Both the position numbers and the translations under genes were made by a program. Under the pieces are notes generated by a model. The model searched no databases. It worked only from the letters and a program-made list of their open reading frames with translations, and was not told the origin of the DNA. DNA of 5,248 nucleotides from a virus, in the IMG/VR virus record IMGVR_UViG_3300011182_000052, positions 1 to 5,248 of that record, one strand, 5' to 3'. Shown piece after piece: positions 1-5,248 of this stretch (positions are counted from its first letter, which is position 1; every line of letters starts with the position of its first letter).

Positions 1-76
1 CTCCGGGATTGTCAATACCATTGACAACATTTGACAATTCACGGTTTTGACCCCGAGCCGCCGTTCAGCCAGGCCA
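1..76. repeat. Terminal direct repeat, copy A (circularisation overlap)
   Basis: ctccgggattgtcaatacc...ccgttcagccaggcca is identical base for base to 5173-5248. Confidence 0.97.
9..37. repeat. TTGACAA repeat cluster: a perfect 8-bp inverted repeat plus a third direct copy
   Basis: TTGTCAAT (9-16), ACC, ATTGACAA (20-27), then TTGACAA (31-37). Copy spacing is 12 and 10 nt. The same cluster recurs at 5181-5209. Confidence 0.85.
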
Positions 77-290
77 CTGTGGCGCACTCCACGACACTGG
101 ACACCCCCATACCTCCTTCCCGGCGACCCCGCGCCGGCACGCCGGCCCGACACCGATCCCGCGAGTTGGCCGCCCGTGGCTCGACAGAGCGCCCGACGGG
201 GTCCCCACGGAGTGGGGCAGGGAGGGCCGAGGCCGCAGGCCGAGCACAGGCCAATGAAGCAGGCCCTCGTCGTCTCCTGCCGCCACCCTC

Positions 291-319
291 TTGACAACTG
301 CGTCCGGACCCACTATACA
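291..319 (+). promoter_or_regulatory. Candidate sigma70-type promoter
   Basis: TTGACA (291-296), a 17-nt spacer, then TATACA (314-319). It lies about 45 nt upstream of the ORF starting at 363. It is the only TTGACA in the non-coding region with a plausible -10. Confidence 0.5.
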
Positions 320-362
320 GCGTTTCATGTGCCGACTTTCGGTACGCATCAGGGGACCCACG

Positions 363-488
363 ATGCAACGTGAAACCGCCATTGGCATGGTCTTGTTCTT
401 GCTCTTTCTTCTCGTCGTCGCGATGGGTGCGCCGGTCATCGCGCAGTCCTACCTCGAGGCCCAGCAGGTTGCCGAGGCATCGCCATGA
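363..488 (+). CDS. Small hydrophobic protein, 41 aa (single TM or signal-peptide-like); function unknown
   Basis: ATG at 363 is preceded by AGGGGA (351-356, 6-nt spacer). Product is MQRETAIGMVLFLLFLLVVAMGAPVIAQSYLEAQQVAEASP, a 20-aa hydrophobic core with an acidic tail. It is the inner part of track ORF 291..488. Stop is TGA 486-488. Confidence 0.45.
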   Translation: MQRETAIGMVLFLLFLLVVAMGAPVIAQSYLEAQQVAEASP

Positions 489-657
489 CTCGGGCTGACT
501 GGAACGCTGACTACCGCCGTGCTCGACTCGTCCGGCGCTTCGAGGAAACATTCACGCATTGCTTTCCTTTCAGACTTTTCGGCTTGTCAACGTCTGTCCA
601 CACCTGTGGCATCAAGGCCTACAGGGCTGCTCGGCGCGATCGCCAAGGACGTCCGGC

Positions 658-1734
658 ATGAGCCGCTGGCAGGGTGCCAAGGTGATCCCCCCCCAGCCTG
701 CTGGGGGGGGCATCACTGCCGGAGGGGGCGGCCCGTTGGGTAACACGGGACGAACCGACCGCAGGGAGGTTCGTAGCCCCCTTCCCACCCTCGCTTCTGA
801 CGGAAAGGCTTCTTCTGGTGCTCTTGTTGACTGGCTCTCCTTCACGGTACGCCCGCAGGGCGAGGACGCGGAGCTACTGCTTCAGGACCCAACCGCCTAC
901 ATTCGGGACTTGGTCTTGAAGGTCTTCTGCGGTTCCAGCATCTACGCGGACGAAGTCGAGAATCGCGGCCTCAACGGCTACAAGCAACGCGCCCGCATCC
1001 TGGTCGATGGCCAGCACGCTGCCGGCAGCTTCGCGGGCTGCGGAGGCAACAAAGGAACGGTCAACATCCAGTTGACCGGCACGGGCTGCGCTGGCGTTCG
1101 TGACTGGCTTTCGGTAGCTCAGGCCCTCGACCGCCTCGATGCAAAGATCACTCGAGTCGATCTGGCTTTTGACGACTACCACGGCCGCTGCATTGAGCTC
1201 GATCGGTGGATCGAGATGAGCCAACGCGGCGAGATTCGCGCCGGAGCCGGTCAGCCGCCCAAGCATCGCCTGATTACCGGCGATGACGGGACGACCCTTT
1301 ACGTCGGTGTCAAAGGCTCCAAGGAGCTTTGTGTCTACGAGAAGGGCAAAGAGCAGGGCGACCCTGACAGCCCTTGGCTACGGGCCGAAATGCGCTTCTG
1401 GGCCAATGACCGAGTTATTCCGGTTGCAGTCCTCACGCAGTCCCTGAGCTTCATACGAGCCGCTTACAACGTGCTTGCCGAGCTTCCCGGCGATGTCTGT
1501 GAGCGGATCAAGACCATCGGGCGTTCGGTCAGCGCCAAGGCTGTCGCCGCTCTTTCCTGGGCACGCCATGCGGTCGGCCCTCTTGTCCATGTTCTTGCCT
1601 GTGCTCTGGGCGAAGAACGGACAGCCGAACTCCTCCTTACTGACATTCGCCGATCCGCGATCCCTAGGCGATTCGCAGGTATTCATCGGGATCAACTCCA
1701 CCATCAACTACAGGTCGCCCTATGTCCGTTCTGA
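658..1734 (+). CDS. Rolling-circle replication initiation protein (Rep_trans / phage gII-type); start codon uncertain
   Basis: Track ORF 559..1734. It carries an N-terminal LVDWLSFTV motif and a TLYVGVKGSKELCVYEKGKEQG motif, both as I recall them for the Rep_trans family (pfam02486). It sits immediately upstream of the gV-like gene. The track start at 559 is TTG with a poorly spaced SD. ATG 658 has AAGGA (645-649, 8-nt spacer). TTG 736 behind GGAGGGGG (721-728) is an alternative. Confidence 0.85.
   Translation: MSRWQGAKVIPPQPAGGGITAGGGGPLGNTGRTDRREVRSPLPTLASDGKASSGALVDWLSFTVRPQGEDAELLLQDPTAYIRDLVLKVFCGSSIYADEVENRGLNGYKQRARILVDGQHAAGSFAGCGGNKGTVNIQLTGTGCAGVRDWLSVAQALDRLDAKITRVDLAFDDYHGRCIELDRWIEMSQRGEIRAGAGQPPKHRLITGDDGTTLYVGVKGSKELCVYEKGKEQGDPDSPWLRAEMRFWANDRVIPVAVLTQSLSFIRAAYNVLAELPGDVCERIKTIGRSVSAKAVAALSWARHAVGPLVHVLACALGEERTAELLLTDIRRSAIPRRFAGIHRDQLHHQLQVALCPF
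682..716 (+). other. C8/G8 homopolymer hairpin in the 5' part of the Rep ORF
   Basis: GTGAT-C8 (682-694), loop AGCCTGCT (695-702), G8-C-ATCAC (703-716). This gives a 13-bp stem with one bulged C (711). Confidence 0.7.
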
Positions 1735-1778: not shown

Positions 1779-2051
1779 ATGATCCGCATCACCATCACCC
1801 AAGAGCCTGTCAACGTCCGTACCGGCATCAAAGAGGGCCGCGAGTGGACTCGTCGGGAACAGACCGCCTACGTCCACAACGGTCACGCTTTTCCGCAGCG
1901 TTTTGTCATCAGTCTCGGGCCCACTTCCCAACCCTACGCACCGGGCGATTACTCGCTCGATGCTCGATCGGTTGTCATCGGTCAATACGGTGAATTGCAA
2001 TTCGCCCGTAACCTCCATCTTGTTCCCGACAAGACCGCCAAGGTCGCCTAA
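1779..2051 (+). CDS. ssDNA-binding protein, gene V (g5p) family
   Basis: ATG 1779 with GAGGA (1768-1772). The 90-aa product aligns by eye with M13 g5p along its length. MIRITI matches MIKVEI, SQPYAPGDYSL matches GQPAYAPGLYTV, and GQYGELQFARNLHLVPDK matches GQFGSLMIDRLRLVPAK. Confidence 0.9.
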   Translation: MIRITITQEPVNVRTGIKEGREWTRREQTAYVHNGHAFPQRFVISLGPTSQPYAPGDYSLDARSVVIGQYGELQFARNLHLVPDKTAKVA

Positions 2052-2248
2052 TGGCTTTCGTCTACGTATGCACTGCTTTTGATACTGCTCTTCAGCAGTG
2101 CAGCGAAGGCCGTTGGATTCCGTATTCTCAAGGTCCACTGCCTCCCTTGAGCGTCGAAGAAGCCCAGATAATCGGAGCCGCTGTCGTCGGCTTTTGGGTC
2201 ATCTGCGCTATTCTTCGCATCCTGAGGCAGGAACTGGCAAAATTGTAG
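2051..2248 (+). CDS. Small membrane protein (65 aa) at the gVII/gIX position; putative minor virion or assembly protein
   Basis: The ATG overlaps the gV stop (TAATG, 2049-2053), with AAGG 7 nt upstream. It has one C-terminal TM (AQIIGAAVVGFWVICAILRIL) followed by basic residues. It lies between the gV-like and coat genes, as gVII/gIX do in Ff. Confidence 0.6.
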   Translation: MAFVYVCTAFDTALQQCSEGRWIPYSQGPLPPLSVEEAQIIGAAVVGFWVICAILRILRQELAKL

Positions 2249-2259
2249 GAGGCTGTCCC

Positions 2260-2385
2260 ATGGACACCACTGCCATTATGGGCTTCGTAAACGATGCCCA
2301 GACCGCCGCCGTGGCTATCGGCATCGCGGTCACGATCTTGATCTTCGCGATCAAGGCGACCAAGTGGCTTCGCCGCGCCGGTTAA
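2260..2385 (+). CDS. Major coat protein (gVIII-like), 41 aa, no leader peptide
   Basis: Strong SD AGGAGG (2247-2252) lies 7 nt before ATG 2260. Product is MDTTAIMGFVNDAQTAAVAIGIAVTILIFAIKATKWLRRAG: an acidic N-terminus, a hydrophobic helix and a basic C-terminus (K,K,R,R). A terminator hairpin follows. Confidence 0.85.
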   Translation: MDTTAIMGFVNDAQTAAVAIGIAVTILIFAIKATKWLRRAG

Positions 2386-2400
2386 TTCAGGCGTTACACC

Positions 2401-2431
2401 GAGGGCCGGGTTTTCCGGCCCTCTCCTTCTT
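2401..2431 (+). terminator. Rho-independent-type terminator after the coat gene
   Basis: GAGGGCCGG (2401-2409), loop GTTTT, CCGGCCCTC (2415-2423): a perfect 9-bp GC-rich stem followed by T-rich TCCTTCTT. It starts 16 nt after the coat stop (TAA 2383-2385). Confidence 0.7.
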
Positions 2432-2459
2432 ATGGGTCAAAAACGATGGACATTACCGG

Positions 2460-3734
2460 ATGGTTCGTTTTGTTCGTTCTCTTTGTTGGCTTCTTCTTGC
2501 TGTTGGACTGACAGCGCAAGCTCAAGTTTTCAATTTTCCGGGTCAGGGACAAGCTTTTGCGGCTTGTATGGCTCACCGTTCAACAGCACTAGGGTTGACA
2601 AGAGTCGTAGAGACTGCTCAGGGTCCAAGGAACGAACGTTCAGTTTTACCCACTACGCAACAAAGGGCTTGCGTACATCCTACAAACCAACATTCACATG
2701 CTCATCCAGCAACAAATTCTGATAGGTACTTGTGCGAGGTTACTTGGGAACGAGAACACGCCCCTAATCAATGGTCACCTTCTAACACTGGAAGTTGTTC
2801 AGATCCACTAGGACCTTCTGGCGCAATAAACACCTATATTTTTCCCTCGACAAGCACATGTGCAACGCGTCCAAGGATGCTTACATTCGTACCCGGTGAT
2901 GTTTCTCGTATGTGTCACGCTGGATGCGCATTTACAACAGCGCCCGGGGTATCTTCATTCTCACCCGAAGATAACAGGACATTCGCAGAATGGATGCCTA
3001 CAGGTCTGGTTTGTGTTCCAACACCGACTCAACCAGCACCACCTAATCCGCCTCCACCGAATGCAGATACAGATGGGGATGGAACTCCAGACGCACAGGA
3101 CGAAAGGCCAAACGATCCCTCATGTTCTGTTGGCTGTGGTCCGCATCCTGGACAACAACCGCCTCCACTTCCTGCACCTACGAATGACAATCAGGACGAT
3201 GGCCTGCAAGTTGTAGATCATTTGAACCCTCGCCTTGACGCCATTAACAACAGCATCAGGGCCATGCAGCAGGCCATAACGTCAGCTCAACAAACAGGAA
3301 CAACGCAAGTCGTACAGGCCATCCAAAGCTCAGGCGGCGGCGGCGGTGGTACAGGCACTTCAATCAACCTCGATCCTGTCGTTCAAGCGATCAATGCCGC
3401 CGCTAGTTCTGATGCAGCCAATACTCAAGGCGTCACTGACGCAATCGATGCATTGCGCGATGATTTGGCCAGGAACACGGCACCAGCGGATGACGGTGCG
3501 AATCCTGATCCGTGGACCTCGGCCAATCCCATCGATCCGACGCAATTGGACGACGGGGGTTTCGGCTGGAATCGCGCCTGTCCACAGTTCCCCACTGTGG
3601 GTTTCATGGGCCATACGATCCACGTCGATCCCACCGGGCAGATGTGCACGATCTTGCAATTGTTGTCGCATTTGATTCTTTTAGCTGGTTTTGTTCATGC
3701 CGGTTATATCGTCGCGTCTCGAGGGAGGGCTTGA
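2460..3734 (+). CDS. Adsorption / minor coat protein (gIII-like), 424 aa
   Basis: The track start 2364 is GTG inside the coat gene and upstream of the terminator. ATG 2460 gives a textbook signal peptide, MVRFVRSLCWLLLAVGLTAQA/QV. Next are a domain with 8 Cys, a Pro-rich linker containing DTDGDGTPDAQD and a G6 linker (SSGGGGGGTGTS). The C-terminus is a hydrophobic anchor (ILQLLSHLILLAGFVHAGYIVASRGRA). This is a g3p-like modular layout at the g3p position. Confidence 0.85.
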   Translation: MVRFVRSLCWLLLAVGLTAQAQVFNFPGQGQAFAACMAHRSTALGLTRVVETAQGPRNERSVLPTTQQRACVHPTNQHSHAHPATNSDRYLCEVTWEREHAPNQWSPSNTGSCSDPLGPSGAINTYIFPSTSTCATRPRMLTFVPGDVSRMCHAGCAFTTAPGVSSFSPEDNRTFAEWMPTGLVCVPTPTQPAPPNPPPPNADTDGDGTPDAQDERPNDPSCSVGCGPHPGQQPPPLPAPTNDNQDDGLQVVDHLNPRLDAINNSIRAMQQAITSAQQTGTTQVVQAIQSSGGGGGGTGTSINLDPVVQAINAAASSDAANTQGVTDAIDALRDDLARNTAPADDGANPDPWTSANPIDPTQLDDGGFGWNRACPQFPTVGFMGHTIHVDPTGQMCTILQLLSHLILLAGFVHAGYIVASRGRA

Positions 3735-3735
3735 T

Positions 3736-4029
3736 ATGTTAACGGGTATTTGGGCGGCCATGATTGCGGCACTTGGCTGGCTGGTACGCTCACAGATAGG
3801 TCGATGGGTCGCCATCGCTCTAAGTGCTCTCGGTATTCAGTTCGCGATTACCGAAGGCGTTATGGACCCGCTTATCGCCTACATTTCGGCACAAGCCGGT
3901 GGCGGCGTGGGTGCTGCTACCGAGTGGCTCGGTTTCTTCAATGTTGATCGTTATATCACACTGATTCTCAGTGCTTATGCAGCAGCCGCTGCAATGTCTT
4001 TCGCAATCCAGCGTATTCAGCGTCCATGA
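3736..4029 (+). CDS. gVI-like small integral membrane protein (97 aa)
   Basis: GAGGGAGGG (3721-3729) precedes ATG 3736, one nt after the gIII stop (TGA 3732-3734). The product has several hydrophobic segments (MLTGIWAAMIAALGWLV..., VAIALSALGIQFAI..., ITLILSAYAAAAAMSFAI). Its stop overlaps the gI start (ATGA 4026-4029). It lies between gIII and gI, as in Ff and in phages where a DUF2523-type ORF precedes zot. The track start 3691 is TTG. Confidence 0.75.
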   Translation: MLTGIWAAMIAALGWLVRSQIGRWVAIALSALGIQFAITEGVMDPLIAYISAQAGGGVGAATEWLGFFNVDRYITLILSAYAAAAAMSFAIQRIQRP

Positions 4030-5129
4030 TTCATCTTCTCACCGGCTTACCGGGTAGCGGAAAAAGCCTTCGTGCCGTCCACTACATTCAGTCCTTTTTG
4101 CAAGAGGGCCGACCTGTTTATGTCTGGGGTGTCGATGGCCTCAATACGCCCGGCATCATGTCCCTTGACGATCCCAATCTTTGGGAAAGCCTTCCCGATG
4201 GATCAGTTATCGTCCTGGACGAGGCTCAGAAGCTGTGGCCATCTCGTCGCGGTGCGGAGCCGATCCCGCCTGTGCGCGCTCTCTCCGAGCATCGCCACCA
4301 GGGCAAAGACTTCGTGCTCATCACGCAGCATCCCGCGATGCTCGATAGCTACGTGCGCCGCCTTGTTGGCCGCCACGAGCACCTTGTTCGGAAGTTCGGC
4401 ATTCAGGCCGCTCAGGTGTTCTCGTGGAATGAGGTGCACGACGATCCGAGCCAGTCGAGCGCCCGCGAGTTGGCCGAAGAATCGCTGTGGGCTTATCCGA
4501 AGGACCTTTTCGGTCAGTACAAGAGTGCGACCCTGCACACCGTAAAGCGGCGTGTCCCCAAGTCTTTGTATGTCATCGCAGCCACAATCGTTATTATTCC
4601 TCTGCTCGCATGGCTCGCTTACAGCACCATTAGCGGATGGACGGATCAACCGGAAGCGGCAACATACGAACCGGCGCAGGCAGAGGTGCCCGGCTTGCCG
4701 GCCACCTCTGCCGAGCCTGTGCCTGTCACTCTATCCGCTCATGCCGAGTATCTCGCACAGTTCATCCCTCGAGTTCCTCACGTGCCTTGGACGGCGCCGG
4801 TTTACGATCGATTCCCCGTGCAGGATTATCCTCGCCCACATTGCATTATCGGCGGCGATCAACGGATCGAGCGCATCACATGCCGGTGCTTCACTCAGCA
4901 GGTGACGCCCATGGATGTGCCGGACGAGATGTGCATCGCCATCGCTCGCCACGGCGCATGGGACCATCGACGCCTTCCCTTCACTGACGAAGCATCCGAT
5001 GCCACGCCGGTTGATAGCCTGGACAACACCGACAGTCCAACGATTCAGGGACCAACAGGCCTTCATGCTGGTGTATTTGATCGAGCGATCGGCGGTTACG
5101 TGCCTCCGGAGTTCCTGAATCCACAGTGA
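4026..5129 (+). CDS. Zot / gI-family morphogenesis ATPase (367 aa)
   Basis: N-terminal Walker A MIHLLTGLPGSGKS and Walker B VIVLDEAQ. A central TM (LYVIAATIVIIPLLAWLAYSTI) is followed by a C-terminal domain containing 4 Cys. This is the typical gI/Zot (pfam05707) architecture, and it is the last gene before the non-coding region. Confidence 0.93.
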   Translation: MIHLLTGLPGSGKSLRAVHYIQSFLQEGRPVYVWGVDGLNTPGIMSLDDPNLWESLPDGSVIVLDEAQKLWPSRRGAEPIPPVRALSEHRHQGKDFVLITQHPAMLDSYVRRLVGRHEHLVRKFGIQAAQVFSWNEVHDDPSQSSARELAEESLWAYPKDLFGQYKSATLHTVKRRVPKSLYVIAATIVIIPLLAWLAYSTISGWTDQPEAATYEPAQAEVPGLPATSAEPVPVTLSAHAEYLAQFIPRVPHVPWTAPVYDRFPVQDYPRPHCIIGGDQRIERITCRCFTQQVTPMDVPDEMCIAIARHGAWDHRRLPFTDEASDATPVDSLDNTDSPTIQGPTGLHAGVFDRAIGGYVPPEFLNPQ

Positions 5130-5160
5130 ATCCTGATATACAAAACACTTGACATGCAGT

Positions 5161-5237
5161 AACGGCGCGGCTCTCCGGGATTGTCAATACCATTGACAAC
5201 ATTTGACAATTCACGGTTTTGACCCCGAGCCGCCGTT
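5161..5237 (+). other. Compound stem-loop spanning the circle junction; candidate packaging signal or origin element
   Basis: The outer stem pairs AACGGCG[CG]GCTC (5161-5173) with GAGCCGCCGTT (5227-5237): 11 bp with a 2-nt bulge. It encloses the inner 8-bp hairpin TTGTCAAT/ATTGACAA (5181-5188 / 5192-5199) and a third TTGACAA (5203-5209). It starts 32 nt after the gI stop. Confidence 0.6.
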
Positions 5238-5248
5238 CAGCCAGGCCA
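5173..5248. repeat. Terminal direct repeat, copy B (circularisation overlap)
   Basis: Identical to 1-76. The window ends exactly where the identity ends, as expected for a circular molecule written out linearly. Confidence 0.97.

What the first reader, a model, noticed from the sequence alone, without database searches (positions are those of the whole stretch)
5149..5237. TTGACAA repeat cluster nested in a 77-nt compound hairpin just after the last gene
The 7-mer TTGACAA/TTGTCAA occurs six times in my hand scan of the genome. Three copies are packed at 9-37 (= 5181-5209) with spacings of 12 and 10 nt. Two of them form a perfect 8-bp inverted repeat with a 3-nt spacer. A TTGACAt lies at 5149-5155 and a TTGACC at 47-52. 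Further exact copies sit at the -35 of the only good promoter (291-297) and, inverted, upstream of Rep (584-590). None of the clustered copies has a -10 box at 16-18 nt, so they look like protein-binding sites or ssDNA structure rather than stacked promoters. An 11-bp outer stem (5161-5173 with 5227-5237) encloses the cluster. The position, directly downstream of the final gene, and the size match the M13 packaging-signal hairpin. Alternatively, the folded stem recreates a duplex TTGACA -35 hexamer in the ssDNA. M13 minus-strand origins and F-plasmid Frpo-type single-strand promoters recruit RNA polymerase for priming in that way. It could also be the Rep binding and nicking site.
Basis: partly seen in the sequence, partly recalled or inferred. 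Interest (0 to 1): 0.7.

Follow-up and report, generated by a model that had tools for sequence, protein, structure and literature searches.

The report
Optional TTGACA repeat module after zot
The repeat cluster is real and under selection, but it is an optional add-on that only a few related filamentous phages carry; it is probably a docking site for the host RNA polymerase rather than the packaging signal or the Rep origin.

Summary
The window is a 5172-nt circular inovirus genome; bases 1-76 repeat 5173-5248. So the "two" clusters are one. TTGACAA occurs 6 times per genome against 0.5 expected, with three copies in 29 nt plus a TTGACAT 32 nt upstream. The 77-nt hairpin folds better than shuffles.

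Homologous clusters sit directly after zot in only three other lineages: L123, L156 and L124. One of them has a Rep only 30% identical. The cluster is missing from at least five related lineages, including close kin. It does not track the Rep, repressor or structural-gene lineage.

Three blocks are invariant: TTGACA, TCCGGGWTTGTCAATA and TTKACAAT. The middle copy varies. No pair covaries, and the outer stem decays even in the closest relative. The copies at 291 (a plain -35), 584 and 2595 are unrelated.

Every family member instead shares a strongly covarying four-way junction (161-260) and a GC hairpin inside rep (682-716). These are better candidates for the packaging signal and origins.

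Best guess, at low confidence: an accessory sigma-70 element, TTGTCA-18-GACAAT, firing into the intergenic region. Rivals are an accessory minus-strand origin and a binding array for an unknown factor.

The parts
5146..5215 (.). Conserved core of the module (continues as 1-43 in the duplicated end)
   Evidence: 70 nt without a single difference from L123, while the surrounding intergenic DNA differs at 8.4% of positions. P(max identical run >= 70) = 0.029.
5149..5154 (+). Site 1: TTGACA, invariant in all cluster-bearing lineages
   Evidence: Alignment A3. It lies 32 nt upstream of site 2 in the window, L123 and L156, and 41 nt upstream in L124. It pairs with site 2 over 6, 6, 8 and 14 bp respectively.
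5155..5173 (+).
   Evidence: Identical in the window and L123 and nearly so in L156; replaced in L124. It can pair locally with 5227-5237 or at long range with 118-136. The window and L123 choose different partners in whole-IG folds.
5174..5189 (-). Site 2 block TCCGGGATTGTCAATA (=2-17). It is the only inverted copy and the best conserved block. Read on the + strand it gives a -35-like TTGTCA.
   Evidence: Invariant as TCCGGGWTTGTCAATA in the window, L123, L156 and L124.
5193..5199 (+). Site 3: TTGACAA (=21-27), not conserved
   Evidence: It reads TTTGCAA in L156 and AAGACAA in L124, so it behaves like a spacer.
5203..5210 (+). Site 4: TTGACAAT (=31-38), containing the -10-like GACAAT
   Evidence: Identical in L156. 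TTTACAAT in L124, which gives TACAAT.
5181..5210 (+). Promoter-like arrangement TTGTCA-18 nt-GACAAT; it also reads the same way on the - strand
   Evidence: Scores 9 of 12 against 0.1 expected per region in shuffles. The same arrangement is in L156. L124 has TTGTCA-19-TACAAT on the + strand only (read by eye; outside the scan's spacer range).
5219..5224 (+). TTGACC (=47-52), used by the minimum-energy fold to pair with site 2
   Evidence: The TTTTGA part is conserved in L156.
5227..5237 (+). 3' arm of the outer stem (=55-65)
   Evidence: It pairs with 5161-5173 (11 bp plus a 2-nt bulge). It carries one of the three window/L123 differences within 5216-5237 (T to G at 5237/65). A second (C to T at 5226/54) weakens the adjoining helix. 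Neither is compensated. The arm is partly lost in L156 and absent in L124.
1..76 (.). Duplicate of 5173-5248 (assembly overlap of a circular genome), not a second cluster

Best explanation
The cluster is an optional cis-acting module that has been exchanged laterally between phages. It is read as DNA sequence by a host factor, most probably sigma-70 RNA polymerase.

Shown:
- It is under purifying selection.
- It always lies between the zot stop codon and a family-wide structured element.
- It is present in only some lineages.
- It is uncoupled from the lineage of Rep, of the repressor and of the structural genes.
- Its conserved parts are three hexamer blocks at fixed spacing, separated by a variable middle.

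Inferred:
- On the double-stranded replicative form, the inverted copy (TTGTCA, 5181-5186) acts as a -35 box.
- The last copy (GACAAT, 5205-5210) acts as a -10 box, 18 bp away.
- Transcription would start near 5215-5217 (=43-45) and run rightward as non-coding RNA into the intergenic region, across the four-way junction.
- In full-length relatives this RNA would be antisense to the minus-strand DUF3653 and repressor genes.
- In this deleted genome it would read on into the rep operon.
- Site 1 and the GC-rich block would be an upstream control site, or a hairpin at the 3' end of the zot mRNA.
For: - The motif equals the sigma-70 -35 consensus, and its reverse complement gives both hexamers. 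TTGTCA-18-GACAAT scores 9 of 12 in the window and in L156, against 0.1-0.2 expected per region.
- Across three independent lineages the two hexamer blocks and their spacing are kept (start to start 22, 22, 23 nt). The sequence between them, site 3, is free to vary.
- The one informative change, G to T at site 4 in L124, turns GACAAT into TACAAT. That is a better -10 box. The same change destroys the TTGACA identity and the site 2/site 4 pairing. In L124 only the + strand reading survives.
- Dependence on a host factor fits the distribution. The module is 84% identical between genomes whose proteins are 30-40% identical. It is absent from close relatives.
- No pair covaries, which argues against a fold-dependent signal.
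- The repressor operators appear to be different repeats, GTCNNGAC(CC), around P_rep. These change with the repressor lineage.
Against: - No conserved + strand ORF, terminator or Rfam family lies downstream, so the transcript has no obvious product.
- The spacer is 18 bp, and 19 bp in L124, which is suboptimal. The scan tool does not call the L124 site.
- A promoter does not explain why site 1 and the 26-nt GC-rich block are invariant.
- Any inverted repeat of TTGACAAT at about this spacing looks promoter-like, so the hexamer match is not independent evidence.
- There are only three independent lineages.
- No transcript data were available.
Confidence: 0.3

Rival explanations
1. Accessory minus-strand (complementary-strand) origin, or single-strand initiation signal. 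On the packaged + strand the single inverted copy (site 2) pairs with site 1, 3 or 4. This makes a duplex TTGACA that host RNA polymerase (or a primosome) recognises on SSB-coated DNA to lay down a primer.
For: - The position matches the Ff layout, at the start of the intergenic region (PMC5405960).
- Every lineage keeps one inverted copy and at least one direct copy able to pair (6-14 bp).
- The folds beat shuffles: z = -3.96, -2.73 and -3.56 for the window, L156 and L124. The true M13 origin region scores only z = -2.35 by the same test.
- A host-dependent, dispensable and portable element fits the patchy distribution.
- The one imperfect pair in the 14-bp L124 hairpin is G-T on the + strand.
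Against: - No -10-like hexamer lies 16-19 nt from any TTGACA, in the linear sequence or in any fold I built (reading).
- The pairing partner differs between lineages.
- The outer stem decays: L123 scores z = -1.57, and the GCTC/GAGC helix is paired in only 56% of cells.
- L124 breaks the site 2/site 4 pairing.
- A much more stable, covarying four-way junction lies next door in every family member and could serve this role.
Confidence: 0.22
2. Array of binding sites on duplex DNA for a protein that is not RNA polymerase. This could be a host nucleoid or regulatory protein, or an unidentified phage protein. It might act as an enhancer for the neighbouring origin-like element, in the manner of f1 domain B with IHF or CTXphi ori(+) with HU.
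For: - Conserved sequence blocks without covariation.
- Sites roughly in helical phase: 32 or 41 nt, and 22-23 nt.
- An AT-rich patch within a 68% GC intergenic region.
- Optional, like the f1 replication enhancer (PMC5405960).
- CTXphi ori(+) needs HU and spans 167 bp with several inverted repeats (PMC4439123).
Against: - No phage gene tracks the cluster. The repressor and DUF3653 genes also occur in cluster-less genomes.
- The orf58/orf71 family is shared by the window, L123 and L156. But it is absent from L124, and distant homologues occur in cluster-less phages.
- The motif matches no regulator site I could recall. IHF, DnaA, FNR, PhoB and LexA were checked by eye only.
- The exact identity with the -35 consensus would then be a coincidence.
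Confidence: 0.2
3. Rep (Rep_trans) plus-strand origin. The nick would lie in the loop between sites 1 and 2, with Rep bound to the repeats downstream, as with IR-II and IR-III of pT181.
For: - The architecture resembles pT181 and f1 origins: an inverted pair plus a direct repeat.
- By position, this intergenic region is the counterpart of CTXphi ig-1, which holds ori(+) (PMC4439123).
Against: - The cluster is nearly identical next to Reps that are 95% and 30% identical. It is absent next to Reps that are 62-78% identical.
- The putative loop sequence is replaced in L124.
Confidence: 0.07
4. M13-type packaging-signal hairpin.
For: The position directly after the last gene and the 77-nt size resemble Ff hairpin A. 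The fold beats shuffles.
Against: - The cluster is absent from packaging-competent relatives, including circular genomes (L125/L187) and L383.
- It is identical between the window and L123 although their zot genes are only 35% identical and the window's coat, g3-like and g6 proteins find no match in L123.
- The pairing is not conserved.
- In the nearest studied phages the signal is a 20-26 nt GC-stem hairpin, often inside rep (bioRxiv 10.1101/2023.12.30.573655). Such a hairpin is conserved here at 682-716.
Confidence: 0.04
5. Hairpin at the 3' end of the mRNA, or a terminator between the convergent zot and lysogeny transcripts; or a neutral remnant of recombination.
For: - It lies exactly where the + and - strand transcription units converge.
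- The outer stem in L156 is followed by T7. The 14-bp hairpin in L124 is followed by a T-rich run on the - strand.
- The module sits at a mosaic boundary.
Against: - The terminator scan finds nothing in the window, L156 or L124.
- T-runs are not conserved.
- Conservation of primary sequence over 70 nt is not expected of a stabilising hairpin or a neutral remnant.
Confidence: 0.1

Closest known systems
Ff (f1/M13) minus-strand origin, hairpins B and C recognised by sigma-70 RNA polymerase, and F-plasmid Frpo single-strand promoters
   Same: - Lies in the intergenic region after the last morphogenesis gene.
- The + strand can fold so that a -35-like hexamer becomes duplex.
- Depends on the host, is dispensable and is portable.
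   Different: - No -10 partner at promoter spacing.
- Stems are only 6-14 bp, and the pairing partner differs between lineages.
- Not universal in the family.
- No sequence similarity. The M13 intergenic region was fetched and folded for comparison.
Ordinary sigma-70 promoter; face-to-face or antisense promoters of temperate-phage switches (for example coliphage 186 pR/pL, from memory)
   Same: - -35-like and -10-like hexamers at 18 bp, conserved with a variable spacer.
- Points toward the oppositely oriented lysogeny genes of full-length relatives.
   Different: - No downstream gene.
- The two hexamers are inverted copies of one motif.
- An extra conserved upstream TTGACA and GC-rich block.
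- Activity is untested.
M13/f1 packaging signal (hairpin A)
   Same: Position and overall length of the predicted hairpin.
   Different: Not conserved in fold, missing in relatives, AT-rich inner part. The packaging signals of related Xanthomonas phages are short GC hairpins (bioRxiv 10.1101/2023.12.30.573655).
Rep_trans origins: pT181 IR-II/IR-III and CTXphi ori(+)
   Same: An inverted repeat followed by further repeats, lying between the last gene and the divergent repressor, as with CTXphi ig-1.
   Different: No co-variation with Rep. CTXphi ori(+) is a 167-bp multi-hairpin region with the nick in a hairpin loop (PMC4439123). Here the neighbouring four-way junction fits that description better.
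f1 origin domain B (replication enhancer, IHF-bound)
   Same: An AT-rich, dispensable element near an origin-like structure that depends on a host factor.
   Different: No IHF consensus. It lies upstream of, not downstream of, the presumed origin. The resemblance is functional only.

Membership tests
Ff-type packaging signal | Long imperfect + strand hairpin just after the last gene | tested here: met
   5161-5237 folds at -19.8 kcal/mol, z = -4.95. It starts 32 nt after the zot stop.
Ff-type packaging signal | Pairing maintained among relatives | tested here: not met
   No compensatory change. Helix 40-43/118-121 is paired in 56% of cells. L123 scores z = -1.57.
Ff-type packaging signal | Present in every packaging-competent relative | tested here: not met
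   Absent from L383, L184-186, L125/L187, L130, L126 and L129.
Ff-type packaging signal | Confers packaging in cis | not testable with these tools
   Needs a transducing-particle assay.
RNA-polymerase-dependent minus-strand origin / single-strand promoter (f1 ori(-), Frpo) | Folded + strand recreates a duplex -35 hexamer | tested here: met
   Site 2 pairs with site 1, 3 or 4 in all four sequences.
RNA-polymerase-dependent minus-strand origin / single-strand promoter (f1 ori(-), Frpo) | -10-like hexamer about 17 nt from the -35 in the same or a stacked duplex | tested here: not met
   The hexamers at 16-19 nt from each TTGACA are not -10-like. In the window they are TCTCCG, CGTTAC, GTTTTG and CGAGCC. 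L156 and L124 give equally poor hexamers, for example CGTTGC, ACCTCC, CCTAAA and GGTAGG. Read.
RNA-polymerase-dependent minus-strand origin / single-strand promoter (f1 ori(-), Frpo) | Hairpin geometry conserved | tested here: inconclusive
   Pairing potential is kept, but with different partners and without covariation. There are only three independent lineages.
RNA-polymerase-dependent minus-strand origin / single-strand promoter (f1 ori(-), Frpo) | Primer RNA made on SSB-coated single strand | not testable with these tools
   Needs an in-vitro priming assay.
Rep_trans plus-strand origin (pT181, CTXphi) | Binding repeats co-vary with the initiator | tested here: not met
   The same cluster occurs with Reps that are 95%, 62% and 30% identical. 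It is absent with Reps that are 62-78% identical.
Rep_trans plus-strand origin (pT181, CTXphi) | Conserved nick sequence in a hairpin loop | tested here: inconclusive
   The site 1/site 2 loop is conserved in the window, L123 and L156 but replaced in L124. The nick itself cannot be mapped here.
Sigma-70 promoter | -35 and -10 hexamers 16-18 bp apart | tested here: met
   TTGTCA-18-GACAAT scores 9 of 12 in the window and L156. In L124 the spacer is 19 bp, outside the scan range.
Sigma-70 promoter | A transcript or gene downstream | tested here: not met
   No conserved + strand ORF and no Rfam family. No transcript data.
Immunity-repressor operator | Co-varies with the repressor and overlaps the regulated promoter | tested here: not met
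   The cluster is absent from L184-186, whose repressor is 65% identical to that of L123. Lineage-specific GTCNNGAC repeats flank P_rep instead.
XerCD attP / dif-like site | XerC arm plus central region (TTCGCATAATGnATA in this family) | tested here: not met
   The dif-like site lies in the lysogeny segment of relatives and at the prophage ends of L126 and L129. None is in the cluster or anywhere else in the window.
Intrinsic terminator | GC-rich stem followed by a T-run | tested here: not met
   The scans find none in the window, L156 or L124.

The most novel reading that the evidence does not exclude
The TTGACA triad is a self-contained, portable cassette that moves by recombination between unrelated inovirus backbones (Rep 30% identical). 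It recruits host RNA polymerase without a canonical -10 box. It would act either as a new kind of single-strand initiation signal on the incoming viral strand, or as an antisense promoter that overrides the lysogeny module. That would explain why the repressor-less, attP-less genome in this window keeps it intact.
Probability: 0.15. Interest if true: 0.6.

Novelty: new variant of a known kind. Interest (0 to 1): 0.38.

Why it matters
The cis signals of integrative, Rep_trans-type filamentous phages (the group that includes CTXphi, the RSS phages and Cf2) are largely unmapped. These signals are the minus-strand origin, the packaging signal and the plus-strand origin.

This work separates an optional, laterally exchanged module from two family-wide structured elements. 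It thereby shows where to look for each function. If the module recruits host RNA polymerase, it would be a compact, transferable part that alters phage expression or establishment. It would also be a marker of recombination between phage backbones.

If it proves inert, the result still corrects a plausible but wrong assignment as a packaging signal or Rep site.

Tried and rejected
- Nucleotide searches of the whole genome and of the cluster against curated phages and plasmids found nothing above chance.
- TTGTCAATNNNATTGACAA and TTGTCAATA-N13/14-TTKACAAT in IMG/VR returned mostly chance hits in AT-rich genomes.
- The pattern with the CCGGG flank found only L121 and L156 in IMG/VR. It found two copies of the L124 type in JGI metagenomes. 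The remaining hits, in metagenome contigs and in GTDB genomes (Clostridiales/Oscillospiraceae-type), were strong promoters matching by chance.
- Contigs for P0002 and P0003 did not reach the post-zot region.
- Repressor-operator idea: rejected.
- attP idea: rejected.
- orf58/orf71 as the binding protein: rejected as a strict link. L124 lacks it, distant homologues occur in cluster-less phages, and the database holds only one other member.
- Hidden + strand gene downstream: rejected, because the reading frames differ between lineages.
- Minus-strand ORF ending at the cluster: rejected. Amino-acid identity between the window and L123 is 80% at 91% nucleotide identity, which is the neutral expectation.
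- MITE or target-duplication idea, based on the 12-nt repeat at 49-60 and 125-136: the geometry does not fit.
- Rfam and tRNA scans were empty.
- Similar repeat clusters after zot in 51 SMA6-like loci: none found.
- Reconstructing the f1 minus-origin promoter geometry from the M13 sequence as a calibration: I could not do this reliably from memory, and the key paper was not available.
- IHF, DnaA, FNR, PhoB and LexA consensus comparisons were made by eye only and gave no match.

Full report
WHAT THE WINDOW IS

Bases 1-76 are identical to 5173-5248, so the window is one 5172-nt circle with 57.8% GC. The same circle was assembled independently in ENA sample ERZ27245539 with a 141-nt overlap and is identical base for base.

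All genes lie on the + strand:
- two small ORFs, 363-488 and 485-661;
- a Rep_trans initiator, 658-1734;
- a gene-V-type ssDNA-binding protein;
- a coat-B protein;
- a g3-like protein;
- a DUF2523 (g6-like) protein;
- Zot, 4026-5129.

This is an inovirus. No curated phage matches at the nucleotide level. The nearest cultured Reps are Stenotrophomonas SMA6 (37%), Xanthomonas Cf2 (35%), the Ralstonia RSS and PE226 phages, and CTXphi RstA. An integrated relative, L126, sits in a chromosome whose neighbouring gene is most similar (64%) to Hydrogenophaga among named hits. The host is therefore probably a betaproteobacterium; this is a weak inference.

THE OBSERVATION

TTGACAA occurs on either strand 6 times in the unique genome, or 9 times in the window counting the duplicated end. 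The expectation is 0.54, and no shuffle out of 200 gave more than 3.

The 77-nt compound hairpin exists. The 11-bp outer stem has a 2-nt bulge. The region 5157-5241 folds at -19.8 kcal/mol, z = -4.95. With boundaries not chosen after the fact, the z-score is -3.26. The complementary strand folds about as well, z = -2.77. The minimum-energy fold does not use the perfect 8-bp repeat. For scale, the true M13 minus-origin region scores only z = -2.35 by the same test. Such z-scores therefore do not discriminate between functions.

RELATIVES

A Rep search found a family at 53-95% identity. I fetched contigs for most of them, and found others by DNA pattern.

A homologous cluster lies directly after the zot stop in only these sequences:
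- L123: Rep 95% identical;
- L156: Rep 30%, Zot 37%, SSB 39% identical;
- L124, which is the same as L121, L178 and L180: Rep 62% identical.

The cluster is absent from:
- L184-186: Rep 62-63% identical, repressor 65% identical to that of L123;
- L125/L187 and L130/L131;
- the prophages L126 and L129;
- L383, whose Rep is 78% identical to that of L156.

In the cluster-less genomes the zot stop is followed within 70-97 nt by a conserved GC-rich element. The window carries about 167 extra nucleotides there. Among 93 related loci totalling 750 kb, only L123 and L156 have three or more TTGACA hexamers within 90 nt.

WHAT IS CONSERVED

Between the window and L123 the intergenic DNA differs at 28 of about 335 positions. 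Yet 5146 through 43 (70 nt) has no difference at all. The probability of so long a run by chance is 0.029.

Across the three independent lineages the invariant blocks are TTGACA (site 1), TCCGGGWTTGTCAATA (site 2, the only inverted copy) and TTKACAAT (site 4). Site 3 is free to vary: TTGACAA, TTTGCAA or AAGACAA. The GC-rich stretch between sites 1 and 2 is kept in L156 but replaced in L124.

Start-to-start spacing from site 2 to site 4 is 22, 22 and 23 nt. From site 1 to site 2 it is 32, 32 and 41 nt.

IS IT A CONSERVED FOLD?

The results:
- There is no real covariation. The lone both-sides change falls within what shuffled controls give, and pairing persists only where the sequence itself is unchanged.
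- The GCTC/GAGC helix is paired in 56% of cells.
- L124 breaks the site 2/site 4 stem with a C-T mismatch.
- Three window/L123 differences lie within 5216-5237, the 3' side of the hairpin. Two weaken its predicted pairs (C to T at 5226/54 and T to G at 5237/65), and none is compensated.
- The fold of L123 scores only z = -1.57.
- In whole-IG folds the window uses the local outer stem. L123 instead pairs the same GC-rich block with a distant TCCCGGAGA...CGCGCCG segment.

Site 2 can always find a partner: 6, 6, 8 and 14 bp with site 1, and 8 bp with site 3 or 4 in the window. But the partner differs between lineages. With only three lineages this neither proves nor excludes a structure.

WHAT IT IS NOT

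- Not the copies at 291, 584 or 2595. In relatives the P_rep -35 reads TTGACAG, TTGACAT, TTGACTT, TTGACGG or TTGACAC. The copy at 291 is therefore a plain -35 whose seventh base matches by chance. The copies at 584 and 2595 have no counterpart in L123.
- Not the repressor operator. Lineage-specific repeats of the form GTCNNGAC(CC) plus a palindrome flank P_rep and change with the repressor. In the window these are GTCCGGACCC at 303-312 and GTGCCGACTTTCGGTAC at 331-347.
- Not attP. The dif-like TTCGCATAATGnATA lies in a segment the window lacks, and it marks the ends of prophages L126 and L129.
- Not a Rep-specific origin and not the packaging signal. The distribution described above is the reason.
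- Not an intrinsic terminator by the scan. L156 does have a T7 run after the outer stem, and L124 has a T-rich run on the other strand.
- Not coding. The + strand ORFs that start in site 4 use different frames in different lineages.

WHERE THE FAMILY-WIDE SIGNALS PROBABLY ARE

The conserved GC-rich element folds as a four-way junction at 161-260. It has a closing stem (161-178 with 245-260) and three hairpins (179-190, 191-227 and 228-244). On nine sequences the counts are as follows:
- 95.5% of cells are paired;
- 19 of 33 pairs show compensatory double changes;
- none of 500 shuffles reaches the observed values;
- controls with partners slid by 1-3 columns pair in only 32-44% of cells.

G-T cells outnumber C-A cells, about 6-7 against 2, which places the fold on the + strand. 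The element is present in every member except the most distant, including cluster-less genomes and L156. It has no Rfam match.

A second conserved hairpin, with C8 and G8 arms, lies inside rep at 682-716. It shows matched changes on both arms across relatives, read by eye.

In the nearest studied phages the packaging signal is a 20-26 nt GC-stem hairpin, often inside the rep gene (bioRxiv 10.1101/2023.12.30.573655). CTXphi ori(+) is a 167-bp multi-hairpin region between the last gene and rstR (PMC4439123).

HOW THE CLUSTER MOST LIKELY WORKS

The distribution points to a host-dependent accessory function, because no phage gene tracks the cluster. The motif is exactly the sigma-70 -35 consensus.

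No TTGACA copy has a -10 box. But the inverted copy read on the + strand gives TTGTCA, and 18 bp further on lies GACAAT. This scores 9 of 12 in the window and in L156, against 0.1-0.2 expected. L124 has TTGTCA-19-TACAAT on the + strand only.

Three observations fit a promoter:
- conserved hexamers at a fixed spacing;
- a variable spacer between them;
- the G-to-T change in L124, which improves the -10 box while spoiling both the repeat and the stem.

I therefore rank a rightward accessory promoter first, at about 0.30. It would make non-coding RNA that runs across the junction. In full-length relatives that RNA would be antisense to the lysogeny genes.

Its weaknesses are these:
- there is no downstream product;
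- the spacer is suboptimal;
- site 1 and the GC-rich block remain unexplained;
- any inverted repeat of this motif looks promoter-like.

An accessory minus-strand origin comes second (0.22). A binding array for a protein other than RNA polymerase comes third (0.20). Then follow a 3'-end hairpin, terminator or neutral remnant (0.10), a Rep origin (0.07) and a packaging signal (0.04).

VERDICT

It is a new variant of a known kind of element (a promoter or initiation signal) in an uncultured inovirus family. Interest is moderate.

Noticed in passing
window 161-260 (+ strand): A 100-nt four-way junction conserved across the whole phage family. On 9 sequences it has 33 pairs, 95.5% of cells paired and 19 pairs with compensatory double changes. 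None of 500 shuffles reaches these values. G-T cells outnumber C-A cells, so it folds on the + strand. It has no Rfam or tRNA match. It is the best candidate for the family's packaging signal or an origin, and is arguably more interesting than the finding itself.
   Followed up: yes
window 285-290; L123 1461-2089: The window lacks about 0.63 kb that its close relative L123 carries between two ACCCT repeats. The missing DNA holds a Cro/CI-like repressor (phrog_638), a dif-like XerCD site and the start of a DUF3653 ORF. The genome is therefore repressor-less and attP-less. This resembles Ralstonia phage RSS1 relative to RSS0, which differ by 626 nt (PMC3816273), and suggests a superinfective deletion form.
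   Followed up: partly
window 682-716: A strong GC hairpin (GTGATCCCCCCCC...GGGGGGGGCATCAC) lies inside the first 20 codons of rep. It is conserved in 12 relatives with matched changes on both arms, for example ATCT...AGCAT. It resembles the GC-stem packaging signals that lie inside rep in Xanthomonas inoviruses (bioRxiv 10.1101/2023.12.30.573655).
   Followed up: partly
window 299-371: Around P_rep (TTGACA 291-296, TATACA 314-319) lie GTCCGGACCC, the palindrome GTGCCGAC-TT-TCGGTAC, and an 18-nt direct repeat (306-323 and 354-371). In relatives the equivalent GTCNNGAC motifs change with the repressor lineage. They are likely the immunity operators, retained here without the repressor.
   Followed up: partly
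window 2050-5100 compared with L123: Mosaic genome. The window and L123 share the replication module (Rep 95%, SSB 100% identical) and the intergenic region (90% identical). Their zot genes are only 35% identical, and the window's coat, g3-like and g6 proteins find no match in L123. Homology resumes about 25-50 nt before the zot stop. The g3-like region (2400-3000) has 47-49% GC against 58% overall.
   Followed up: partly
window 485-661 (orf58); L123 2285-2500; L156 5752-5967: A small arginine-rich ORF lies just upstream of rep and overlaps the rep start. L156 carries a 326-nt patch that is 95-98% identical to L123 here, although the two Reps are only 30% identical. This indicates a recent recombination. 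The window's copy is shortened at its C-terminus. Only one other database member exists, and distant homologues occur in SMA6-like phages. The function is unknown.
   Followed up: partly
window 4679-4712: A 16-nt near-perfect palindrome (GGCAGAGGTGCCCGGC / GCCGGCCACCTCTGCC, 2-nt spacer) lies inside zot.
   Followed up: no
L276, L355, L371 (IMG/VR contigs): Unrelated phage contigs of about 51-52% GC carry TTGACAA-N5-TTGTCAATA-N13-TTGACAAT at what looks like a junction between two genes, the second starting at the ATG that overlaps TTGACAATG. This may be a coincidence of coding sequence or a related control site.
   Followed up: no
L257 6899-6965: A different inovirus has its own repeat cluster directly after zot, with four copies of CGTAACG in inverted pairs in an AT-rich patch. 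Repeat arrays after zot may therefore recur with different motifs.
   Followed up: no
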